Source of the DNA: a virus
Taxonomy: Duplodnaviria; Heunggongvirae; Uroviricota; Caudoviricetes
Direction: 5' to 3' (one strand)
IMG/VR virus record: IMGVR_UViG_3300022758_000169
DNA length: 39,612 nt
The first letter of the stretch is position 1, and every line of letters begins with the position of its first letter. Both the position numbers and the translations under genes were made by a program. Below are positions 1 through 39,612 of the stretch, in pieces. The notes beneath the pieces are model-generated. The model was given only the letters and a program-made list of their open reading frames with translations, ran no database searches and was not told the origin of the DNA.

Positions 1-357
1 TGGATATCACGCAGGCATTTGCTCACACCGACGATGTAGCAGAACATGGTGGTCAGCTCCGCCGCCGCGCCCGATACGTCGTGCCCGTCGTCCTGTAACT
101 GGTTCAGCAGATTCATCAGCAGTGAGTTCTCCGTCAGGCCGAGAACACCAGATGGGGAATGAATCAGGCTGCGGTAGCCGGGCTTCAGTGGGGCACTGTA
201 GGTTTTGTTCTCTATCTTCATCGCCTGCATTACTGCTGACGCCGTGGCGTTGGCTACCTGGTCGGCAACCATCTTTATGCGTTCTTCTTGCGGGAGCGAG
301 TTTTTTATGTAACTTCCGGTGCGGCGGATCTGAGGAAGAACCTCACCTGTAACCCAT
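1..357. repeat. inverted repeat, left copy (antirepressor C-terminal module); reverse complement of 39256..39612
   Basis: Direct comparison: window start tggatatcacgcaggca is the reverse complement of the window end; about 98 percent identity over 357 bp with roughly 8 mismatches. Confidence 0.9.
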
Positions 358-668
358 TTACGAAAGCGGTAGGGGATAGTGCCTGGTGTCACTGCGTCGC
401 GGCAGCGGAGGATCAGTGTGTAGAGGCCTGACTCGGAGATGATGTTGATCTCTTTTACTCGGCTGTCAAAAATTGCACGATGTTCATGCCCTATGTTGAA
501 CATAGACCTTTCATCATCATCCAGTTTTTCAAGTGCTTGGGTGACGTTTTGGATACGCAGCGCACTACAAACGTCTTGGGCTACAAACCATGGTTGGCCA
601 TCGATAATGATGGAACGGATAGGGTTAACAGATTCAAATTTGAAGATGGAAGTTTGAGCATTAGCCAT
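1..668 (-). CDS. antirepressor, BRO-N-type N-terminal domain plus shared C-terminal module; 3' end cut by window edge
   Basis: ATG at 668..666 preceded by GGAGAT; translation MANAQTSIFKFESVNPIRSIIIDGQPWFVAQDVCSAL...ISESGLYTLIL...FRKWVTGEVLPQIRRTGSY is a BRO-N-like pattern; reading frame open to the window start. Confidence 0.75.
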   Translation of the reverse strand, partial: MANAQTSIFKFESVNPIRSIIIDGQPWFVAQDVCSALRIQNVTQALEKLDDDERSMFNIGHEHRAIFDSRVKEINIISESGLYTLILRCRDAVTPGTIPYRFRKWVTGEVLPQIRRTGSYIKNSLPQEERIKMVADQVANATASAVMQAMKIENKTYSAPLKPGYRSLIHSPSGVLGLTENSLLMNLLNQLQDDGHDVSGAAAELTTMFCYIVGVSKCLRDI

Positions 669-823
669 GGTGGTTATCTCCACTTAGTGATTTTAATCAC
701 CACCGCAACGCCAATTACTGGTGGTGAACTGGACAAGGTTGGCGTACCGGCCTAAGTGGTACCGGCGTCCTTTCGGACCCCTGCCCAGCCCACCATAATT
801 CGGATATAGCTGTGCTTAACGCA

Positions 824-945
824 TAAAAAAACCACGTCTGGCGTGGTATGCGCCACTTAGTAACCCGGGACGCCAATCCCGGCACTGGATTTTGCCAGTG
901 CCCGATTACTATGGCACAAGAGGAGTGCGATGTAAATTTACCGAA
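824..945 (-). ncRNA. candidate structured antisense small RNA (c4-like), copy A
   Basis: Promoter TTGATT-N17-TATTAT on minus strand, predicted three-way-junction fold, hairpin loop UUGGCGU, terminator hairpin CCACG/CGTGG followed by U7; homologous to 38686..38806. Confidence 0.45.
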
Positions 946-952
946 AAGGTAA
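938..952. promoter_or_regulatory. operator-like palindrome TTACCGAAAAGGTAA
   Basis: TTACC-N5-GGTAA overlapping the predicted start of sRNA copy A. Confidence 0.5.
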
Positions 953-1099
953 TAATAGACGAAGATAAATATCAAAATCAACCATATTTGGTTAAGGTGT
1001 ATAAAAGAGCCACCAGCGAGAAATTGTACCGCGATGTAAAATAACGAGCATCTGCTGGCTTACAACCAGCGATGTTTCAAACTTGTCACTACTATCAAC

Positions 1100-1498
1100 G
1101 TGCCATTCCACGGCGTAGAACTTTATGTTGTCAATCACAACGGCGAACCGTACACCCCAATGAAACCTATCGTTGAGGGAATGGGTCTAGACTGGAAATC
1201 TCAACATAAGAAGATTTCTCAACGCTTCTCGAAGGGTATGGTGGAAATCACCATACCTTCTGCCGGAGGGGTGCAAGCCATGATTTGTATGGCTTTACGA
1301 AAATTGGCAGCTTGGTTGAACAGCATCAGTCCAAACAAAGTCCGCCCTGAAATCCGCGATAAGGTAATCCAGTATCAGGAAGAGTGTGATGATGTGCTCT
1401 ACGAGTACTGGACTAAAGGCCATGTGGTTAACCCGCGCAAAGCTAAAAAGGTGTTGCCGGGTAAAATCACGACTGAACAGCAGGAGGTATACACTTAA
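1100..1498 (+). CDS. antirepressor-like protein (recalled P22 antirepressor N-terminal domain pattern)
   Basis: ORF with motif GEPY...EGMGLDWKSQHKKI; divergent from sRNA/antirepressor copy A. Domain assignment from memory. Confidence 0.45.
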   Translation: MPFHGVELYVVNHNGEPYTPMKPIVEGMGLDWKSQHKKISQRFSKGMVEITIPSAGGVQAMICMALRKLAAWLNSISPNKVRPEIRDKVIQYQEECDDVLYEYWTKGHVVNPRKAKKVLPGKITTEQQEVYT

Positions 1499-17159: not shown

Positions 17160-17236
17160 GTGGCATTAGCTCAGTTGGACAGAGCAACCGCCTTCTAAGC
17201 GGTTGGTCGCAGGTTCGAATCCTGCATGCCACGCCA
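17160..17236 (+). tRNA. tRNA-Arg (anticodon UCU), phage-encoded
   Basis: Manual cloverleaf: acceptor GTGGCAT/ATGCCAC, D-stem GCTC/GAGC, anticodon stem ACCGC/GCGGT with loop CTTCTAA, T-arm GCAGG-TTCGAAT-CCTGC, discriminator G, encoded CCA. Confidence 0.85.
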
Positions 17237-29564: not shown

Positions 29565-29888
29565 AATCACGCCTGACGAATCGCGATTATCTCGCTATTG
29601 GTATTGCAGAGATTGCTGGACTCAATGGCGCATGATTTGACAATGCCGCCAGAGCTATCGCATACTGACCGCACTAGAAAACAAACAGCGGTCATCCGCA
29701 CCCGATAGCTTTGCGGCTTTTTTATGCCTGCAATCTGGCATAGTCACATCCGTACAAAGGTCGGGTGGAGAGGCGTAATACAACACCCGAAAGGGGAATA
29801 TGCCCGGAGCTACTGTTTGTGCTCTAGTTGACACCCGATCACCAGCTACTAACTGGTTTTCGTAACTAAAAACAAACAGGAGGTCATC

Positions 29889-30545
29889 ATGACCAGTCAA
29901 CTCATCCCCGTATTCAACGGCACTATATCTAACGAAACAGCCCTACTTTGTAATGCCCGCGATCTGCACGCTTTTTTAGGTGTTAAAAAGGTGTTTGCAG
30001 CATGGATTACAAATCGCATATCAGAATACGAATTCATTGAAAATCAAGACTATATTTTGCTTTCCAATTTGGGAAAGCAAACATCTGGTAGAGGCGGCCA
30101 CAACCGCAAAGAGTACCACCTCACCCTTGATACAGCCAAAGAGCTGGCGATGGTCGAGCGTAACGAAAAAGGTCGCCAGGTGCGACGCTACTTCATTGAA
30201 TGCGAGAAACGTTTAAGACAACAAGAAACAAAAGTGGAGAAGGTCTTGTCAGGCTTCATGCCCGCCATTATGGAGGCGATCAAGCTGGAAGACAAAAAAG
30301 AATACAGTGCCCCACTGAAGCCCGGCTACCGCAGCCTGATTCACTCGCCGTCTGGTGTTCTCGGCCTGACGGAGCACTCACTGCTGATGAATCTGCTGAA
30401 CCAGTTACAGGACGACGGGCACGACGTATCGGGCGCGGCGGCGGAGCTGACCACCATGTTCTGCTACATCGTCGGTGTGAGCAAATGCCTGCGTGATATC
30501 CAGACTCACGCGGAGTACATCAACGACAAGGCAGGGTTCTTCTGA
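29889..30545 (+). CDS. antirepressor (AntA/KilA-N-like N-terminal domain plus shared C-terminal module)
   Basis: Strong SD AGGAGG; C-terminal 68 aa nearly identical at DNA level to the two terminal copies. Confidence 0.7.
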
Positions 30546-33936: not shown

Positions 33937-34217
33937 ACTTTCTCCTGTTTACTATCTATAAGCCAGTCAATTATTGATGACTAACCCCGCATAGTAAACC
34001 ATATATGAATCATTATTGTTCCATATCATATATCTCAATAAAAGTACTAATGATTTTACAGAACGAGCCAGCAGAGTGGGGGCAGTTGTACAGGAACCAT
34101 AGACTTAATTTTGTATTTAATAATGCTATGGTGTAATAAACCTGAACATGTATTTAAAATACGTACTGATTCATGATAGAATTCAAAGATAACTTTTCAC
34201 CAACTCCGTTTTTGATA

Positions 34218-34244
34218 CCCGCAATATTTTGCGGGCTTTTTTTT
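34218..34244 (+). terminator. plus-strand intrinsic terminator with no annotated upstream plus-strand gene
   Basis: CCCGCAA-uauu-UUGCGGG followed by U8; overlaps the tailspike stop codon on the other strand. Confidence 0.45.
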
Positions 34245-37200
34245 AACGTTCTTCCAGAGACTGAACCCGCTCTTTTATCTTATCCATTTCTCTGCGCTGC
34301 CATGCTGCCTCGATATAGAATAAGAGATCAGGTCTGACCCCCCATCTAGATCCTGCTGGCGTTATTTCAACGCGCTCAATGATGTCTTCTATTACCATCA
34401 CTGGATTATCATCCTCATCAACAATGATGCTCCCGTCATTATCAGTCAGCGGCATTTCCCTTTGGCCAGTAATGACGTCATCATATACTGCGGGATAATC
34501 GTCATAGCAAAGAAAGGCATAGCGGCATGTTGTGCTTTCTTCTTCCATGAGTCCGTGAGAAATAAGAACATCACGAAGTTGCTGCGCGATTACACCATGA
34601 TGTATCCTCGCCCCTTCTTCCCCCTTTATAGCGACAGCGTTCAGCCATTTATAAGCGATATACCTGACGTCACCCCAGGCATCCAGCAATGCTTCGTCAG
34701 GAGAGACCGGCTCTGTCTTTAATGTTCCGTCACTGGTAACCACAGGATTGGAGCCAAGATAAACTGTCGAGAACCTGTTTCCCGGACCACCAAGAGCATT
34801 TACATTATCAAGATAAGGTTTAACATCTCCGTTCTCAAAAAGATGTTCGAGTGCGTTATATACCGCGCGACGTGGAGTACTGCTTCCGGAACCATGCAAC
34901 GTTATCATTGCACCATCTGCTGAAGACGTTGTTTCACCGCCGCTAACGATTAATCTCTGAGCGGTAACATCATCAGACGGTACTTTCTTCGCAATAATGG
35001 CGTAATTACCCTCAAGTTTGACTTCCGCGCGAACTTGTCCTGATGTACCTGCATGGACAGTCAGTGACTGGACGGCAACATCATCTGTGAAATCAACGGG
35101 TACAGGAACCGTCCTCACGCCTGACGTCGACATAAAAGTAGGAAGCGTTCTGTTAGGAGTGGCTCCGTAGACAAAATCCCTTGAAACAAATTCTTCCTGT
35201 TTAATTTTCACCCTGAAACAATACAAATCAGCCGGGTGACCATCGTGAACATAAGGATATTTTCTGTTGTTATCCCCTATGCTCCATGGGTTTAGAAAGT
35301 CTTCCCCACCGAAAATGTAGTACAGCCAGTTGTCTTTGATACAAACTGAACCAACACCAACCGCAGAGTTAACTATTCCGCCCTGATAAATCTGATCAGT
35401 AACATTAACCCACTCTACATTATCCAGACTCCACTCATTGACGTTAACTCTGGTCATAAATGTTCTTGGATAATTTCCTGCATAACGGTTATCAGGTTCT
35501 CCTCCTTCCCACTCACCAAATGCGCGCTCACTGCCAAAAATAATCAGCTCATCGCCAACTTTGGCAAAAGGAAGGTTTGAGTGATGAACATTATTTGGGA
35601 AGCGAAGAGAATTCCATGATGTACCTAAATCAGAGCTTCTGTGCAATGAACTACCGGGTTGAGTACTTAATGTCCCCCTGGTCGTCAGATACAGAATGCC
35701 ATCATAATATTTTACACATGGCTCAGATGCATTCGCCTCATATTCTGCAGGTATGCGTCTGCGAACAAAGCTACCAGGAGAACCGAAAGCATCAGAGAAA
35801 TAGAGTATCCCAAGCTCGCGTGGACCAATATCACCATTATGGTAGCCAACAGCAAAACTGTTATCGCTAATCGTCGCAAAACTGTGAATCTCAGTAACAG
35901 GAGTGCTTCCGTCAACAAAAGAAGGAATAGTTCCAAGACTGGTTTTTCTCCATGGTGACGAGTGAAATGATGTACCAAAACTCCAGTATCTACCCTCGTT
36001 ATTCTGATCCACATCCTGGGTATTTTGCGTCGTAACTGTAAAAGTATTTTTATCAATAACAGTAGTCACCGTCATATTCCCGGTAACACCTGTAACACCA
36101 GAGTTTGAGAAGTTGACAAAATCACCAGCAAATAATCCGTGATCAGTAATGCGAATATAAGCGACTTGCTGATTTGCTGCTTTCGTTATACCACCATAAA
36201 CGCGAAGGCTGCGACTCATTGGGCGATCCCACAACTCTGCAACCTGCAGTTTATTTCCGCTCACGGTCCGCGTCTCAATTACAGCAAAAAGGCGATTTCT
36301 GACAACCCCCATACTCATGCAGTGATAGTTAACTGTGGGATAGTTTTCATGTAAATCTGTAAGCCATTCCGGCGTTGTCCAGGTCTTCCCGTCATCTCCT
36401 GAGCGAACCCATGCAACATGGAGGTTATTTACACCATGGCGGTCTCCAGCCATAAAAGGCGCATAGATGACATTGTCATATACAAACGTTTTATCCTGCG
36501 TCCAGGCGTTGTACCACGGTGTATCTGTAATTTTAAATAACTCTCCCTGGATAAAATCTTCAGAAGCATAAAAAAGAGGCTGACCCGGTATTCTCTCAAA
36601 TAAAAAACGAGCATTTTTAAATCGACTGACATCCGGAAGAGTTGATACTTTAAAAGTAAGCCCTAATCCGTCAATTTTATAACCTGGAGATGAGGCTTCA
36701 AGGCACGCGCTTATTGCAGTGGAATCGTCATTTATACCATCACCAACAGCTCCAAAATCTTTGGGGCTAATAGCATCACGCATTTTATCCTGGAACGTTC
36801 GGTACACAGCCCCAGAACCATACTGAATAAACCAACCAAAACCACCAACAACCCCGGCGATTGCAGCATCGACATAATTACGCATTGAGCGATTATTTAC
36901 AGCGTCCTGCTCAAATGATGGATCTGCAAGGTTAGAAATTTTGTTTTGCTTTGCATCGTAATATTTTGCAAGCAAAGATGGTTTCATCAATGCACGTCTG
37001 AACCACCCAAAACATTGCTGGATCAGCATCGTCAGGTAGTCAAAGGCATCTTCATGCACTTCGGGGAAAAATTTTCCCTGATTGCGAAGGTCTGTCTCCT
37101 GCACTACATCAAGCACACGATCTATCGTAATTCGCCATCCAGTAGCAAGCGGAGACGGAAGAACCACAGAACCGCCACTATAAGTGCCCGCCCCAGTTAC

Positions 37201-37362
37201 CGTATAACCGGTATCCAGAACCAATTCTGTTACGTTTCCGTTCAGGTCAGACACCTGAACAACCAGGTCTGATTTTCTGAAAATTCGAAAAGTATACGGA
37301 AACGATGTCGTAACGCCGTTACCGGTGTATTCGTTGTGGTCAACTTCGGTTGAGACCGTCAT
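34243..37362 (-). CDS. tailspike with Asp-box (BNR) motifs and C-terminal self-cleaving chaperone-like domain
   Basis: 1039 aa; N-terminus MTVSTEVDHNEYTGNGVTTSFPYTF; Asp-boxes SGDDGKTW and SDLGTSW; C-terminal VVTSDGTLK with the Ser codon at 34732..34734. Confidence 0.8.
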   Translation of the reverse strand: MTVSTEVDHNEYTGNGVTTSFPYTFRIFRKSDLVVQVSDLNGNVTELVLDTGYTVTGAGTYSGGSVVLPSPLATGWRITIDRVLDVVQETDLRNQGKFFPEVHEDAFDYLTMLIQQCFGWFRRALMKPSLLAKYYDAKQNKISNLADPSFEQDAVNNRSMRNYVDAAIAGVVGGFGWFIQYGSGAVYRTFQDKMRDAISPKDFGAVGDGINDDSTAISACLEASSPGYKIDGLGLTFKVSTLPDVSRFKNARFLFERIPGQPLFYASEDFIQGELFKITDTPWYNAWTQDKTFVYDNVIYAPFMAGDRHGVNNLHVAWVRSGDDGKTWTTPEWLTDLHENYPTVNYHCMSMGVVRNRLFAVIETRTVSGNKLQVAELWDRPMSRSLRVYGGITKAANQQVAYIRITDHGLFAGDFVNFSNSGVTGVTGNMTVTTVIDKNTFTVTTQNTQDVDQNNEGRYWSFGTSFHSSPWRKTSLGTIPSFVDGSTPVTEIHSFATISDNSFAVGYHNGDIGPRELGILYFSDAFGSPGSFVRRRIPAEYEANASEPCVKYYDGILYLTTRGTLSTQPGSSLHRSSDLGTSWNSLRFPNNVHHSNLPFAKVGDELIIFGSERAFGEWEGGEPDNRYAGNYPRTFMTRVNVNEWSLDNVEWVNVTDQIYQGGIVNSAVGVGSVCIKDNWLYYIFGGEDFLNPWSIGDNNRKYPYVHDGHPADLYCFRVKIKQEEFVSRDFVYGATPNRTLPTFMSTSGVRTVPVPVDFTDDVAVQSLTVHAGTSGQVRAEVKLEGNYAIIAKKVPSDDVTAQRLIVSGGETTSSADGAMITLHGSGSSTPRRAVYNALEHLFENGDVKPYLDNVNALGGPGNRFSTVYLGSNPVVTSDGTLKTEPVSPDEALLDAWGDVRYIAYKWLNAVAIKGEEGARIHHGVIAQQLRDVLISHGLMEEESTTCRYAFLCYDDYPAVYDDVITGQREMPLTDNDGSIIVDEDDNPVMVIEDIIERVEITPAGSRWGVRPDLLFYIEAAWQRREMDKIKERVQSLEER

Positions 37363-37820: not shown

Positions 37821-37838
37821 AGGCCGCAAGAGCGGCCT
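37821..37838. terminator. hairpin between convergent genes
   Basis: AGGCCGC-aaga-GCGGCCT. Confidence 0.35.
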
Positions 37839-38565
37839 ATCGTTTCGCTTTGTGCTCGTCCCAGCACGTTTTGCACCATGCCATTAAGCCGTCCGCATTT
37901 TGATTATTAGGGTAAAAGCTGGTCCGTTTTCTGCGGACATTACAAATTGGGCACCACTTCATATGGCGTGTATTCTTTGGGCCATCGAGACACCTTGCAC
38001 ACCACTTAGTCAATCCATCTGGATTTTTTGACGATTTCCGGAATTTGTCATATGGAAGGTTTATTCTGCATCGCAAACACTGCTTGCGGCCACTTGAAAC
38101 TCTGTTAGCTGATTCTTCTTTTGGCGGCGATACAGAAGGTATTCTTGCTGGCTCTGATACTGCCTGAGGTGCTTTTTTAGATGACTGAGACGATATGTCA
38201 TCACCAGGGAATCTTCCATGATATGCCGGACGCGTTGACACTCCAGGTGGAAGCTCAGCTGTAAACGGCTTTGGCTGAATCAGTTGCCTCTCTTTTGCTA
38301 ACTCCTGCTGTTTATAATATGTCTGGATTACCGCACTATCATAAGCAGGAGGTACGGAAATATCAGGCGCGTTACCTCCAGTTTTTTGAAAATGAGTAGA
38401 TGTGTGTTCTATCACCTGTGTACGACTAATCGTTACCTCCCCATCTTCGGTCTTTATCGTTTTGTTCTGATTAACGACCGTACGATCAGAGATCTTAGTC
38501 TTGTTCTGGTTGATAACGTAAATAATCACCGCAACCACACCAACAACTATCCAGAAAACTTCCAT
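37837..38565 (-). CDS. membrane-anchored protein with C-terminal double Cys4 repeats (moron)
   Basis: N-terminus MEVFWIVVGVVAVIIYVI is a predicted TM helix; C-terminal repeats CLRC...WCARC and CPIC...WCKTC; promoter, leader and start shared with the ORF at 1559. Confidence 0.55.
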   Translation of the reverse strand: MEVFWIVVGVVAVIIYVINQNKTKISDRTVVNQNKTIKTEDGEVTISRTQVIEHTSTHFQKTGGNAPDISVPPAYDSAVIQTYYKQQELAKERQLIQPKPFTAELPPGVSTRPAYHGRFPGDDISSQSSKKAPQAVSEPARIPSVSPPKEESANRVSSGRKQCLRCRINLPYDKFRKSSKNPDGLTKWCARCLDGPKNTRHMKWCPICNVRRKRTSFYPNNQNADGLMAWCKTCWDEHKAKR

Positions 38566-38585: not shown

Positions 38586-38600
38586 TTACCTTAAAGGTAA
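38586..38600. promoter_or_regulatory. operator-like palindrome TTACCTTAAAGGTAA
   Basis: Upstream of the minus-strand gene at 38565; mirror of the site at 1524..1538. Confidence 0.5.
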
Positions 38601-38678
38601 TATCTTGCTTTCAGGTGATCAAGCGTTAAACGCAATCAACCAAATACGGTTGATTTTAATATTTCTTCGCGTTTATCA

Positions 38679-38693
38679 TTACCTTTGCGGTAA
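38679..38693. promoter_or_regulatory. operator-like palindrome TTACCTTTGCGGTAA overlapping the sRNA promoter
   Basis: Promoter TTGATT (38651..38656) - N17 - TATCAT (38674..38679); the site covers the predicted start. Confidence 0.5.
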
Positions 38694-38806
38694 ATTTACA
38701 TCGCACTCCTCTTGTGCCATAGTAATCGGGCACTGGCAAAATCCAGTGCCGGGATTGGTCTCCCGGATTACTACAGAGGCACATATGCCGCATAAGCGGT
38801 TTTTTT
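38686..38806 (+). ncRNA. candidate structured antisense small RNA (c4-like), copy B
   Basis: Predicted fold: outer stem 38713..38718/38778..38783, stem 38721..38727/38766..38772, hairpin 38729..38750, hairpin 38751..38764 with loop UUGGUC, then terminator hairpin plus U7 (38800..38806). Confidence 0.5.
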
Positions 38807-38960
38807 ATGTGTAAAGCGCACCTATTCTATGGTGGGCTGTGTGGGGGCACCGAAAGGTGCGCCGGGTTCCTTTGTAGCCGGTAAGACCAACTCTGCACAG
38901 TTCACCACCATCTGATTGGTCTCAGCGGTGGTGATTAACCTAACTACAAAGGTGATCGCC

Positions 38961-39612
38961 ATGAATACCAAACCTTCCATCTTTTCCTTTGAGTTATCCT
39001 GCCAGATCCGTATGTTCATGATTGACGGAGAACCTTGGTTTGTCACCAAAGATGTGTGCAATGCTTTGAATATTGATGTTACACAAGCGAGAAAACTTGA
39101 TAAAAAAGGGCTGGAACAAAAAGGGGGTCTGTATTCAATACAGACCCCTGGTGGAATACAAGAACTATCCATCGTTTCAGATCAGGTCTCTACATCCTTA
39201 TTCTGCGTTGCAAAGAGGCAATGACTGAGGGAACGAGAGCATTCAGATTTCTTGAATGGGTTACAGGTGAGGTTCTTCCTCAGATCCGCCGCACCGGAAG
39301 TTACATTAAAAACTCGCTCCCGCAGGAAGAACGCATAAAGATGGTTGCCGACCAGGTAGCCAACGCCACGGCGTCAGCAGTAATGCAGGCGATGAAGATA
39401 GAGAACAAAACCTACAGTGCCCCGCTGAAGCCCGGCTACCGCAGCCTGATTCATTCGCCGTCGGGTGTTCTCGGCCTGACGGAGCACTCACTGCTGATGA
39501 ATCTGCTGAACCAGTTACAGGACGACGGGCACGACGTATCGGGCGCGGCGGCGGAGCTGACCACCATGTTCTGCTACATCGTCGGTGTGAGCAAATGCCT
39601 GCGTGATATCCA
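38961..39612 (+). pseudogene. antirepressor (BRO-N plus shared C-terminal module), frame-disrupted by a 1-nt deletion near 39182; 3' end cut by window edge
   Basis: BRO-N frame (MNTKPSIFSF...) stops at 39224; homology continues in the +2 frame (SGLYILILRCKEAMTEGTRAFRFLEWVTGEV...); copy A has GAGTCAGGC where this copy has GATCAGGT. Confidence 0.55.
39256..39612. repeat. inverted repeat, right copy; a third direct copy of the last ~200 bp lies at 30302..30501
   Basis: Direct comparison with 1..357 and with 30302..30501 (about 3 mismatches over 200 bp). Confidence 0.9.

What the first reader, a model, noticed from the sequence alone, without database searches (positions are those of the whole stretch)
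38640..38965. Structured small RNA between an operator-bearing promoter and the antirepressor gene (c4-like antisense candidate)
Between the promoter TTGATT-N17-TATCAT and a hairpin plus U7 terminator (38800..38806) lies a roughly 110-nt non-coding unit. I fold it by eye into a three-way junction: an outer stem GUGCC/GGCAC, an inner stem AGUAAUC/GAUUACU, and two hairpins. Hairpin 2 has loop UUGGUCU (38755..38761), which is perfectly complementary to AGACCAA (38884..38890) in the leader of the downstream antirepressor mRNA. That leader also contains a hairpin CACCACC...GGUGGUG (38902..38932) whose loop carries the same sequence as the sRNA loop (GAUUGGUCUC), so the sRNA could compete with an intramolecular leader pairing near the ribosome-binding site. 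This architecture is reminiscent of the P1/P7 c4 antisense RNA that controls ant, but here it sits in a podovirus with lambdoid early genes.
Basis: partly seen in the sequence, partly recalled or inferred. Interest (0 to 1): 0.85.

Follow-up and report, generated by a model that had tools for sequence, protein, structure and literature searches.

The report
P1-type C4 antisense antirepressor switch
The interval holds an unannotated copy of a well-known phage RNA switch: a C4 antisense RNA, an IsrK-like RNA carrying copies of its targets, and an antirepressor gene whose ribosome-binding site C4 can cover. It is therefore a new example of a known system, not a new kind of regulator.

Summary
Rfam places two known families in the interval.

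The layout matches phage P1 immI: an operator with tandem promoters, a1/b1, a terminator, C4 (b', a'), a2 in a hairpin loop, b2 over the Shine-Dalgarno, then a Bro-N antirepressor. Across 113 viral and 105 genomic units, both contacts co-vary at all three positions, with 6 "a" classes and 23 "b" loops.

Gifsy-1 IsrK-"orf45"-anrP is the same module. C4 hits "orf45", and the published compensatory mutants are a1-a' pairs.

Most likely C4 blocks ant translation, and the IsrK-like RNA, which has the same sense as the targets, competes for C4.

The window carries a second, orthogonal copy (901-668, minus strand). A third, sRNA-Xcc1-type module sits at 29639-29888.

Verdict: a new member of a known kind, of modest interest.

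The parts
38586..38600 (.). Operator-like palindrome TTACCTTAAAGGTAA, 21 nt upstream of the divergent minus-strand gene (37837-38565).
   Evidence: TTACC-N5-GGTAA occurs 16 times in the window (12 perfect) against 0.77 expected; 0 of 100 shuffles reach 16.
38650..38679 (+).
   Evidence: 9/12 consensus match. An equivalent -35/-10 is kept only in the epsilon15-like subset of alignment A1.
38679..38693 (.). Operator-like palindrome TTACCTTTGCGGTAA. It lies between the -10 of the upstream promoter and the -35 of the conserved promoter.
   Evidence: An operator-like palindrome abuts the -35 at a fixed distance in 85 of 113 related units. This is analogous in position to Oc4 in P1.
38695..38723 (+). 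Conserved promoter-like site TTTACA-N17-CATAGT (TG-extended). The predicted start is about 38730, the 5' end of the isrK model.
   Evidence: The -35/-10 positions are kept across all clades (TTGACA/TTGATG ... TATGGT/TATGAT). In Gifsy-1 the published +1 falls at the equivalent base.
38730..38806 (+). IsrK-like / c4-a1b1 sRNA: hairpin 1 (38730-49), hairpin 2 (38750-65), a single-stranded linker, and an intrinsic terminator (38787-38806).
   Evidence: RF01394 74.7 bits (threshold 50). RF03163 c4-a1b1 39.9 bits, E 9e-9. Hairpins 99-100% paired with compensatory changes. A U-tract is present in 113/113 units.
38755..38761 (+). a1 site UUGGUCU, in the loop of hairpin 2. It is a sense copy of a2.
   Evidence: Perfect complement of a'. 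Three-way concordance in 110/113 viral units and in all 76 genomic units where the three sites could be read.
38771..38779 (+). b1 site CUACAGAGG, in the linker. It is a sense copy of b2 with one A-to-G change, giving a G.U pair with b'.
   Evidence: Duplex with b' -11.9 kcal/mol. The own-loop complement is >=7 nt in 75% of units against 2% for non-self pairs.
38825..38912 (+). C4 antisense RNA. By analogy with the P1 annotation the mature RNA is predicted at about 38831-38909. It has a 17-bp outer stem, two inner hairpins and a conserved 3' CACCA.
   Evidence: RF01695 78.6 bits (threshold 45). The minimum-free-energy fold equals the Rfam structure, z -4.5. The outer stem is 99.9% paired with 9 covarying pairs. 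AUGG (38829-32) and C38906, C38908 and C38909 are invariant.
38869..38877 (+). b' site CCUUUGUAG, in the loop of C4 hairpin 2. It pairs with b2 over the Shine-Dalgarno and with b1.
   Evidence: 23 distinct loops, each matched by its own flanks. Pair counts.
38884..38890 (+). a' site AGACCAA, in the single-stranded junction of C4.
   Evidence: It corresponds to P1 a' (CUGUCAA) and to Gifsy-1 nt 158-164.
38903..38933 (+). Hairpin presenting a2 (UUGGUCU, 38916-22) in its loop. Its 5' strand CACCACC is shared with the 3' strand of the C4 outer stem, so the two folds are mutually exclusive.
   Evidence: 96% paired with 4 covarying pairs.
38944..38952 (+). b2 site CUACAAAGG, overlapping the Shine-Dalgarno (AAGGUG). 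The ant ATG is at 38961.
   Evidence: Duplex with b' -12.0 kcal/mol. The site ends 7-11 nt before the ATG in most units. Own-loop complement 97% against 9% for non-self pairs.
38961..39612 (+). Antirepressor gene (Bro-N type), copy A. It is truncated by the window end and carries a 1-nt deletion at about 39181.
   Evidence: Bro-N 24.6 bits on the 87-aa fragment. 11 related loci encode an intact 230-aa ORF and a 12th is cut by its locus end; all 12 read TCAGAATCAGG where the window reads TCAGATCAGG.
668..981 (-). Second complete module (copy B), minus strand.
- Promoter-like sites: 981-952 and 936-908. Operator: 938-952.
- isrK 901-825, with a1 876-870 and b1 860-853.
- C4 800-717, with b' 759-752 and a' 745-739.
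- a2 714-708 and b2 687-680. The ant ATG is at 668.
- Specificity differs from copy A: a = UUGGCGU/ACGCCAA, b = CUAAGUGG/CCACUUAG.
   Evidence: isrK 67.7 bits and C4 66.0 bits. Coordinates. Cross-module duplexes are -3.4 to -4.9 kcal/mol against -9.2 to -12.6 within a module.
3..668 (-). Antirepressor gene, copy B (Bro-N). It runs off the start of the window.
   Evidence: Bro-N 71.6 bits (threshold 25.6).

Best explanation
This is a P1 immI-type RNA immunity module that gates a Bro-N antirepressor.

Shown by family matches and covariation:
- Transcription would start at a promoter next to a repressor-type palindrome.
- The first product is a 77-nt IsrK-like RNA ending at an intrinsic terminator. 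It displays a1 in a hairpin loop and b1 in a single-stranded linker.
- Read-through continues into a C4 RNA, then a2, then b2/Shine-Dalgarno, then ant.

Inferred from P1:
- C4 is cut out of the read-through transcript. Its invariant AU|GG 5' junction and its acceptor-like stem followed by ACCA fit an RNase P substrate.
- Its two exposed patches, a' (AGACCAA) and b' (CCUUUGUAG), pair with a2 and b2. This covers the ribosome-binding site and blocks ant translation.

Inferred from Gifsy-1 genetics and from sequence logic:
- The IsrK-like RNA carries the same a and b sequences as the mRNA. It therefore competes for C4 as a target mimic.
- It can do this in cis on the read-through transcript or in trans as the terminated sRNA. 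Either way it tips the balance toward ant expression.

The two-site code is combinatorial and sets the specificity of each module. The two modules in this phage do not cross-pair.
For: Family matches above threshold:
- C4 78.6/45 and isrK 74.7/50, plus a second pair at 717-901.

Structure:
- 95.5% of 6494 cells pair in the combined intramolecular plus C4-to-a1/b1 structure. 27 pairs show changes on both sides, 0/500 shuffles reach the observed values, and slid controls give 33-44%.
- C4-to-a2/b2 plus the a2 hairpin: 90.4% paired, slid controls 30-50%.

Alignment-free tests:
- The a sites agree three ways in 110/113 viral units, and in 6 classes in an independent set of species-representative genomes.
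- The b' loop has a >=7-nt exact complement to its own b2 region in 97% of units (non-self 9%) and to its own b1 region in 75% (non-self 2%).
- b2 ends 7-11 nt before the ATG.

Comparison with P1:
- The P1 record annotates the same order: Oc4, P2c4/P1c4, a1, b1, C4, a2, b2.
- The P1 a1b1 region matches both c4-a1b1 (51 bits) and isrK (35 bits).

Comparison with Gifsy-1:
- The isrK, c4-a1b1 and C4 models all pass their thresholds there.
- The published compensatory mutants G28A/C162U and G31A/C159U fall on a1-a' pairs.
- IsrK in trans raised anrP translation 139-fold, and an ~80-nt processed RNA (STnc1160) arises from 'orf45'.
Against: - There are no transcript, processing or reporter data for this phage. 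Start sites, read-through and RNase P cleavage are all inferred.
- RNAcofold gives about 0 kcal/mol net gain for full-length C4 with either partner. It cannot model loop-loop kissing, so this is uninformative rather than contrary.
- P1 has icd between b2 and ant. Here b2 sits directly on the ant ribosome-binding site.
- The Gifsy-1 authors explain activation through translation of orf45 coupled to anrP, not through C4 titration. Constitutive STnc1160 did not relieve IsrK toxicity.
- The ant gene of copy A is frameshifted in this genome, so module A may no longer control a working protein.
Confidence: 0.8

Rival explanations
1. One reading: the promoter-proximal ~110-nt RNA is itself the c4-like antisense repressor. 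Its loop UUGGUCU pairs with AGACCAA in the ant leader and so controls translation.
For: The complementarity is real and co-varies. The extended three-way-junction fold is stable, z -4.6.
Against: AGACCAA lies inside a C4 RNA, not in a plain leader. The upstream RNA has the same sense as the sites at the ribosome-binding site (a1 = a2, b1 ~ b2), so it cannot mask the Shine-Dalgarno. In Gifsy-1 the homologue activates rather than represses. In P1 the repressor is the downstream C4 RNA.
Confidence: 0.05
2. The Gifsy-1 'orf45' model: the stretch between the terminator and ant encodes a leader peptide. Its translation is unlocked by IsrK and is coupled to ant translation.
For: In Gifsy-1, start-codon and stop-codon mutations in orf45 reduce activation of anrP, and the orf45 stop overlaps the anrP start as AUGA.
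Against: - In the window, the ORF starting at the conserved AUG of the C4 5' end stops after 27 codons in copy A, about 50 nt before the ant ATG (and the sequence).
- In copy B it stops after 14 codons, by hand translation of the sequence.
- Across 113 units the ORF length ranges over 3-36 codons or runs off the extract, and only 11 of 87 stops touch an ATG.
- The Gifsy-1 authors themselves note that the nucleotide sequence is conserved but the amino-acid sequence is not.
Confidence: 0.07
3. A P4 CI-like model: the processed C4 RNA acts mainly on transcription. It pairs with a1/b1 or a2/b2 on nascent RNA and promotes termination, either at the isrK terminator or by Rho, rather than blocking ribosomes.
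For: A conserved intrinsic terminator sits 8 nt after b1 in 113/113 units. The Gifsy-1 authors raise this analogy, and IsrK in trans raised anrP transcription 8-fold. From memory of Biere, Citron and Schuster 1992: in P1, translational repression of icd by c4 leads to transcriptional polarity on ant.
Against: b2 overlaps the Shine-Dalgarno at a fixed short distance from the ATG in nearly all units, which points to ribosome occlusion as the primary event. The translational effect in Gifsy-1 (139-fold) far exceeds the transcriptional one (8-fold). In the predicted fold of the 77-nt RNA the terminator forms regardless of b1.
Confidence: 0.08

Closest known systems
Phage P1/P7 immI region (c4 antisense RNA, a1/b1, a2/b2, icd, ant1/2)
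   Same: - Same order on one strand: a repressor operator at tandem promoters, an a1/b1 element with two hairpins and a terminator-like hairpin, C4, a2 a few nt after C4 in a hairpin loop, and b2 over a Shine-Dalgarno.
- Same C4 fold (P1 68.8 bits, window 78.6 bits).
- Same logic of a two-site specificity code. From memory of Citron and Schuster 1990, this is the basis of P1/P7 heteroimmunity.
   Different: - There is no icd gene, so b2 covers the ant ribosome-binding site directly.
- The antirepressor is a Bro-N protein.
- The operator is a 15-bp palindrome (TTACC-N5-GGTAA), not the asymmetric 17-bp C1 operator.
- The host phage is an epsilon15/phiV10-like podovirus (Uetakevirus), not a P1-like myovirus plasmid prophage.
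- The genome holds two orthogonal copies.
Salmonella Gifsy-1 isrK-orf45(STnc1160)-anrP-isrJ locus (Hershko-Shalev et al. 2016, PMC4825925)
   Same: - Same three elements in the same order upstream of an antirepressor. isrK scores 79.3 bits there and 74.7 here; C4 scores 69.0 there and 78.6 here.
- a1 UUGGCGU and a' ACGCCAA are the same class as the window's copy B.
- A short terminated sRNA plus a read-through mRNA.
   Different: - In Gifsy-1 an ORF from the C4 AUG reaches the anrP start (45 codons, AUGA overlap). In the window it stops early in both copies.
- The published model does not mention c4.
- Gifsy-1 is a lambdoid prophage, and its module sits next to the Q antiterminator.
Rfam c4-a1b1 motif (RF03163; Weinberg et al. 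2010, PMC2864571)
   Same: It models the same two hairpins with a1 in the second loop. The window matches at E 9e-9, and P1 and Gifsy-1 match above threshold.
   Different: The window scores 39.9 bits, below the 46.7 gathering score. The isrK model additionally covers b1, the linker and the terminator, and fits better. Rfam does not place isrK in the C4 clan.
Phage P22 immI (sar antisense RNA, arc, mnt, ant)
   Same: A small RNA limits antirepressor translation in a temperate podovirus.
   Different: From memory: sar is transcribed from the opposite strand across the ant ribosome-binding site, and Arc and Mnt proteins control the promoter. Here the regulator is made from the same strand and acts through short loop contacts. 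The only opposite-strand promoter-like site (39046-39018) is a 9/12 match of the kind expected by chance.

Membership tests
C4 antisense RNA (RF01695) | Covariance-model score at or above the gathering threshold (45 bits). | tested here: met
   78.6 bits at 38825-38912 and 66.0 bits at 800-717.
C4 antisense RNA (RF01695) | A long outer stem enclosing two hairpins and a single-stranded junction, supported by compensatory changes. | tested here: met
   The minimum-free-energy fold equals the model structure. The outer stem is 99.9% paired with 9 covarying pairs, and all 5 pairs of hairpin A co-vary.
C4 antisense RNA (RF01695) | Two exposed patches (a', b') complementary to a2 and b2 at the ribosome-binding site of the next gene on the same transcript. 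| tested here: met
   a' 38884-90 pairs with a2 38916-22, and b' 38869-77 pairs with b2 38944-52 (ATG at 38961). The pairs co-vary across units.
C4 antisense RNA (RF01695) | A second set of the same target sites (a1, b1) upstream of the RNA. | tested here: met
   a1 38755-61 and b1 38771-79.
C4 antisense RNA (RF01695) | Excised from a longer transcript by RNase P to give a ~77-nt RNA. | not testable with these tools
   Only compatible features are seen: an invariant AU|GG at the predicted 5' end and a conserved stem plus ACCA at the 3' end. Processing is known for P1 (Hartmann et al. 1995, cited in PMC11143913). An ~80-nt species is reported for Gifsy-1.
C4 antisense RNA (RF01695) | Represses antirepressor synthesis in vivo. 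| not testable with these tools
   Needs reporter fusions or phage genetics.
P1 immI operon | An icd gene between b2 and ant, whose translation is the direct target. | tested here: not met
   b2 is followed directly by the Bro-N ant ORF, with no intervening ORF.
P1 immI operon | A prophage-repressor operator at tandem promoters. | tested here: inconclusive
   Two promoter-like sites flank a palindrome that recurs 16 times in the genome. Binding and promoter activity were not tested.
isrK (RF01394) | Covariance-model score at or above the gathering threshold (50 bits). | tested here: met
   74.7 bits at 38730-38806 and 67.7 bits at 901-825.
isrK (RF01394) | Two 5' hairpins, a linker and a Rho-independent terminator, located upstream of an antirepressor gene. 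| tested here: met
   The U-tract is present in 113/113 units. Bro-N ant lies downstream.
isrK (RF01394) | Binds Hfq, and acts in trans to activate translation of the downstream antirepressor. | not testable with these tools
   Shown only for Gifsy-1 (PMC4825925).
c4-a1b1 (RF03163) | Covariance-model score at or above the gathering threshold (46.7 bits). | tested here: not met
   39.9 bits, E 9e-9, at 38717-38769. The same element in Gifsy-1 (48.1) and P1 (51.0) passes, so the shortfall reflects divergence of the 13 nt upstream, not a different structure.
P22 sar-type cis-antisense control | A regulator transcribed from the opposite strand across the ant start. | tested here: not met
   No Rfam match on the minus strand. 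There is only one weak promoter-like site, within chance expectation.

The most novel reading that the evidence does not exclude
The IsrK sRNA family and the 'a1b1' element of P1 are one and the same thing. It would be a terminated sense-strand target mimic that titrates the processed C4 antisense RNA, so antirepressor expression is set by a three-RNA competition between mimic, antisense and mRNA.

On this reading, Gifsy-1 'orf45'/STnc1160 is a C4 RNA. sRNA-Xcc1 would be a further class built on the same plan. Single phages such as this one would then carry up to three orthogonal RNA-gated antirepressors, with a combinatorial two-site address code.

I found no paper in the held library that states the IsrK = a1b1 or orf45 = C4 identity. 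Rfam keeps isrK and sRNA-Xcc1 outside the C4 clan.
Probability: 0.5. Interest if true: 0.55.

Novelty: new member of a known kind. Interest (0 to 1): 0.3.

Why it matters
For this window the result is mostly annotation. Records of epsilon15/phiV10-like phages label this stretch only as a terminator, a hypothetical protein and an anti-immunity protein. In fact it holds a complete RNA immunity module.

The wider value is in joining two literatures. The P1 c4 work and the Salmonella IsrK work describe the same module in different terms. Reading them together assigns a function to the a1/b1 sites, which the P1 record itself calls only "putative" targets, and it reinterprets "orf45".

The two-site code has at least 6 "a" classes, 23 "b" loops and 32 observed combinations. 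That makes it a natural set of orthogonal RNA switches, and it probably determines which prophages can induce one another.

Tried and rejected
- RNAcofold of full-length C4 with the IsrK-like RNA or with the leader gave no net stabilisation. I set this aside because the program cannot represent loop-loop contacts, and used site-level duplex energies instead.
- A search for TTACC-N6-GGTAA found nothing because the spacer is 5.
- I looked for Gifsy-1 among the IMG/VR and species-representative loci using the published numbering and found none. The Gifsy-1 record was then fetched directly.
- The P1 genome paper and Citron and Schuster 1992 are not held. P1 facts therefore rest on the GenBank annotation, on secondary citations, or on memory where marked.
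- I considered an antiterminator hairpin between the 3' end of b1 and the 5' strand of the terminator (GGCA/UGCC in copy A, GUGG/CCAC in copy B). I did not pursue it, because the predicted fold always forms the terminator and the register differs between copies.
- I rejected protein-coding readings of the ORFs at 38605-38814 (+) and 38822-39172 (-), because they overlie RNAs with covariation support.
Full report
**What is in the interval**

- isrK (RF01394) at 38730-38806, 74.7 bits against a threshold of 50.
- C4 antisense RNA (RF01695) at 38825-38912, 78.6 bits against a threshold of 45.
- The same pair on the minus strand at the other end of the window: isrK at 901-825 (67.7 bits) and C4 at 800-717 (66.0 bits).

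The proposed target AGACCAA (38884-90) is the single-stranded junction of that C4 fold.

**Checking the observation**

Confirmed features:
- The hexamers TTGATT (38650-55) and TATCAT (38674-79) are present, but the spacer is 18, not 17.
- The terminator hairpin with U7 lies at 38787-38806.
- The loop UUGGUCU lies at 38755-61.
- The downstream hairpin carries GAUUGGUCUC in its loop.

- It is the minimum-free-energy fold of 38686-38806 (-48.9 kcal/mol, z -4.6).
- Its two hairpins are the isrK hairpins, and hairpin 1 is supported by compensatory changes.
- The two enclosing stems pair in 85% of alignment cells, mainly within the closest clade.
- Their 5' strand overlaps the -10 of a second promoter-like site, TTTACA-N17-CATAGT (38695-38723).
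- That second site is the one conserved across all clades. It would start the RNA at about 38730, exactly where the isrK model and the published Gifsy-1 IsrK begin.

The 12-nt loop of the second C4 hairpin contains CCUUUGUAG (38869-77). This is complementary to two sites.
- CUACAAAGG at 38944-52, which overlaps the Shine-Dalgarno 8 nt before the ant ATG at 38961.
- CUACAGAGG at 38771-79, in the isrK linker, with one G.U pair.

**Comparison with phage P1**

The P1 record annotates the following in order: the C1 operator Oc4, tandem promoters P2c4 and P1c4, "putative a1" and "b1" target sites, the C4 RNA, a2, b2, icd, then ant1/2. Reading the P1 sequence gives these equivalences.
- a = TTGACAG. 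It sits in a hairpin loop upstream, and again 3 nt after C4.
- b = GTTAGTGA, over the icd Shine-Dalgarno.

In P1 terms the window therefore has a1 38755-61, b1 38771-79, b' 38869-77, a' 38884-90, a2 38916-22 and b2 38944-52.

An Rfam scan of P1 found C4 (68.8 bits) and RF03163 "c4-a1b1: a1, b1 targets of C4 antisense RNA" (51.0 bits, same clan as C4). The isrK model matched the same stretch at 35.1 bits (E 2e-5). The window matches c4-a1b1 at 39.9 bits, E 9e-9, just under its threshold. The c4-a1b1 motif was published by Weinberg et al. 2010 with P1 in the seed alignment (PMC2864571).

**Covariation**

One pattern scan of IMG/VR gave 113 distinct units.

Alignment-based counts:
- The intramolecular structure plus the C4-to-a1/b1 contacts pairs in 95.5% of 6494 cells. 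27 pairs change on both sides, no shuffle out of 500 reaches the observed values, and slid registers give 33-44%.
- The C4-to-a2/b2 contacts plus the a2 hairpin pair in 90.4% of cells, against 30-50% when slid.

Alignment-free counts:
- The three a positions agree in 110 of 113 units, in three classes.
- A separate scan of species-representative bacterial genomes adds three more a classes, all concordant. Those genomes span Enterobacterales, Aeromonas, Vibrio, Xanthomonas, Thalassospira and others.
- There are 23 different b' loops. Each has a >=7-nt exact complement in its own b2 region in 97% of units (9% for non-self pairs) and in its own b1 region in 75% (2% for non-self pairs).
- a and b classes recombine freely, with 32 combinations observed.

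**Link to Gifsy-1 IsrK**

What Hershko-Shalev et al. 2016 (PMC4825925) reported:
- IsrK is a 77-nt sRNA ending at a terminator.
- Read-through gives an isrK-orf45-anrP mRNA that is not translated.
- IsrK supplied in trans raises anrP translation 139-fold.
- G28A/C162U and G31A/C159U behave as compensatory pairs.
- An ~80-nt RNA (STnc1160) is processed from "orf45".
- The orf45 nucleotide sequence is conserved but its amino-acid sequence is not.
- The paper cites the P4 CI RNA as an analogy but never mentions c4.

What I found in the Gifsy-1 record:
- isrK scores 79.3 bits, c4-a1b1 scores 48.1 bits (above threshold, on the same element), and C4 scores 69.0 bits across "orf45".
- Numbering from the IsrK +1 reproduces every published position.
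  - G28 and G31 lie in a1 (UUGGCGU, nt 26-32).
  - C159 and C162 lie in a' (ACGCCAA, nt 158-164).
  - AUG107 is the AUG of the invariant C4 5' end (UAUGGUGGG).
  - AUG119 follows 12 nt later.
  - The anrP start overlaps the orf45 stop as AUGA.

The IsrK system and the P1 c4 system are therefore the same module. A 2025 review still treats them as separate (PMC12197685). Papers that list both Rfam hits side by side do not connect them.

**How it most likely works**

Shown here:
- The family memberships, the folds, the two-site complementarity at both flanks, and the position of b2 on the ribosome-binding site.
- The terminator between a1b1 and C4 is present in 113 of 113 units.
- The 3' strand of the C4 outer stem and the 5' strand of the a2 hairpin share CACCACC, so the two folds exclude each other.

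Inferred from P1:
- C4 is cut out of the read-through RNA. The invariant AU|GG junction and the stem followed by ACCA fit an RNase P substrate (Hartmann et al. 1995, cited).
- C4 then blocks ant translation by pairing at a2 and b2.

Inferred from Gifsy-1 genetics plus sequence logic:
- The IsrK-like RNA has the same sense as the targets. It therefore cannot mask the ribosome-binding site, but it can compete for C4, in cis or in trans, and so favours ant expression.

The leader-peptide version of the Gifsy-1 model does not transfer to this phage.
- In copy A, the ORF from the C4 AUG stops after 27 codons.
- In copy B it stops after 14 codons.
- Across units the ORF length varies from 3 to 36 codons or more, and only 11 of 87 stops touch a start codon.

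**Control of the promoter**

The palindrome TTACC-N5-GGTAA occurs 16 times in the window against 0.77 expected. One copy lies between the two promoter-like sites of each module: 38679-93 for copy A and 938-952 for copy B. It abuts the -35 at a fixed distance in 85 of 113 related units. Binding was not tested.

**Two modules in one phage**

Copy A and copy B differ at both sites.
- Copy A: a = UCU class, b = CUACAAAGG.
- Copy B: a = CGU class, b = CUAAGUGG.

Site duplexes are -9.2 to -12.6 kcal/mol within a module and -3.4 to -4.9 kcal/mol across modules. In related loci with two copies, the copies differ in at least the b site in 5 of 6 cases, counting the window.

The two ant genes face outward at the window ends and converge in related contigs. 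The window therefore looks like a ~40-kb genome opened between them. Close relatives are epsilon15/phiV10-like podoviruses (Uetakevirus). Their records annotate no RNA here.

**Verdict**

The c4 analogy is right. The assignment of roles is reversed.

Every component belongs to a family already in Rfam, and the architecture has been known since the P1 work, the 2010 motif survey and the 2016 IsrK study. I rate it a new member of a known kind, with modest interest.

The most novel defensible reading is the unification of IsrK with a1b1 as a C4 target mimic, possibly extended to sRNA-Xcc1.

Noticed in passing
window 29639-30545: A third antirepressor-type module.
- sRNA-Xcc1 (RF02221, 64.8 bits) lies at 29759-29848, just upstream of a 218-aa ORF (29889-30545). 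The C-terminal half of that ORF matches the C-terminus of ant copy A.
- The RNA is built like C4: an outer stem followed by ACCA, and two inner hairpins.
- Its loop CUGUUUGU is complementary to ACAAACAG abutting the GGAGG Shine-Dalgarno (29872-79). It is also complementary to a second ACAAACAG (29681-88) that precedes a terminator. These are the only two copies of that 8-mer in the window.
- In 100 related units from IMG/VR, the variable core has a >=7-nt complement upstream in 89% (non-self 25%) and downstream in 71% (non-self 21%).
- Rfam puts sRNA-Xcc1 in no clan, yet it may be a C4-type processed antisense RNA.
   Followed up: partly
window 39177-39186: The copy-A antirepressor gene has a 1-nt deletion (TCAGATCAGG, where all 12 related loci read TCAGAATCAGG). 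This truncates it after 87 aa. 11 of those relatives encode an intact 230-aa protein and the twelfth is cut by its locus end. It is either a pseudogene or a sequencing error.
   Followed up: yes
window, 16 sites: 938, 1524, 16823, 19968, 19986, 22660, 22722, 24624, 24962, 25012, 25724, 25786, 31872, 37467, 38586, 38679: The 15-bp palindrome TTACC-N5-GGTAA is about 20-fold over-represented. It often occurs in pairs 18-62 bp apart, with a cluster at 24.6-25.8 kb. It looks like the operator set of the phage repressor, scattered around the genome much as the C1 operators are in P1.
   Followed up: partly
window 1-700 and 38961-39612: The window ends are inverted copies of homologous antirepressor C-termini, facing outward. 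In related contigs the two modules converge about 3 kb apart. The window is therefore probably a whole ~40-kb phage genome opened between two convergent ant genes.
   Followed up: partly
window 1100-1498 (+): Next to copy B, and divergent from it, lies a 132-aa ORF with a strong P22_AR_N antirepressor N-terminal domain (149.6 bits). This phage therefore encodes at least four antirepressor-like proteins.
   Followed up: no
L354 (Gifsy-1, NC_010392) 34131-34329: In Gifsy-1 the isrK and c4-a1b1 models both pass their gathering scores on the same element, and C4 passes across 'orf45'. Rfam lists isrK outside the C4 clan CL00128, which looks like a curation gap.
   Followed up: yes
window 34243-37362 (-) and 17160-17233 (+): A 1039-aa tailspike-like ORF lies just upstream of the module region; I judged this by eye from the translation and did not test it. 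A tRNA gene (73.3 bits) lies mid-genome.
   Followed up: no
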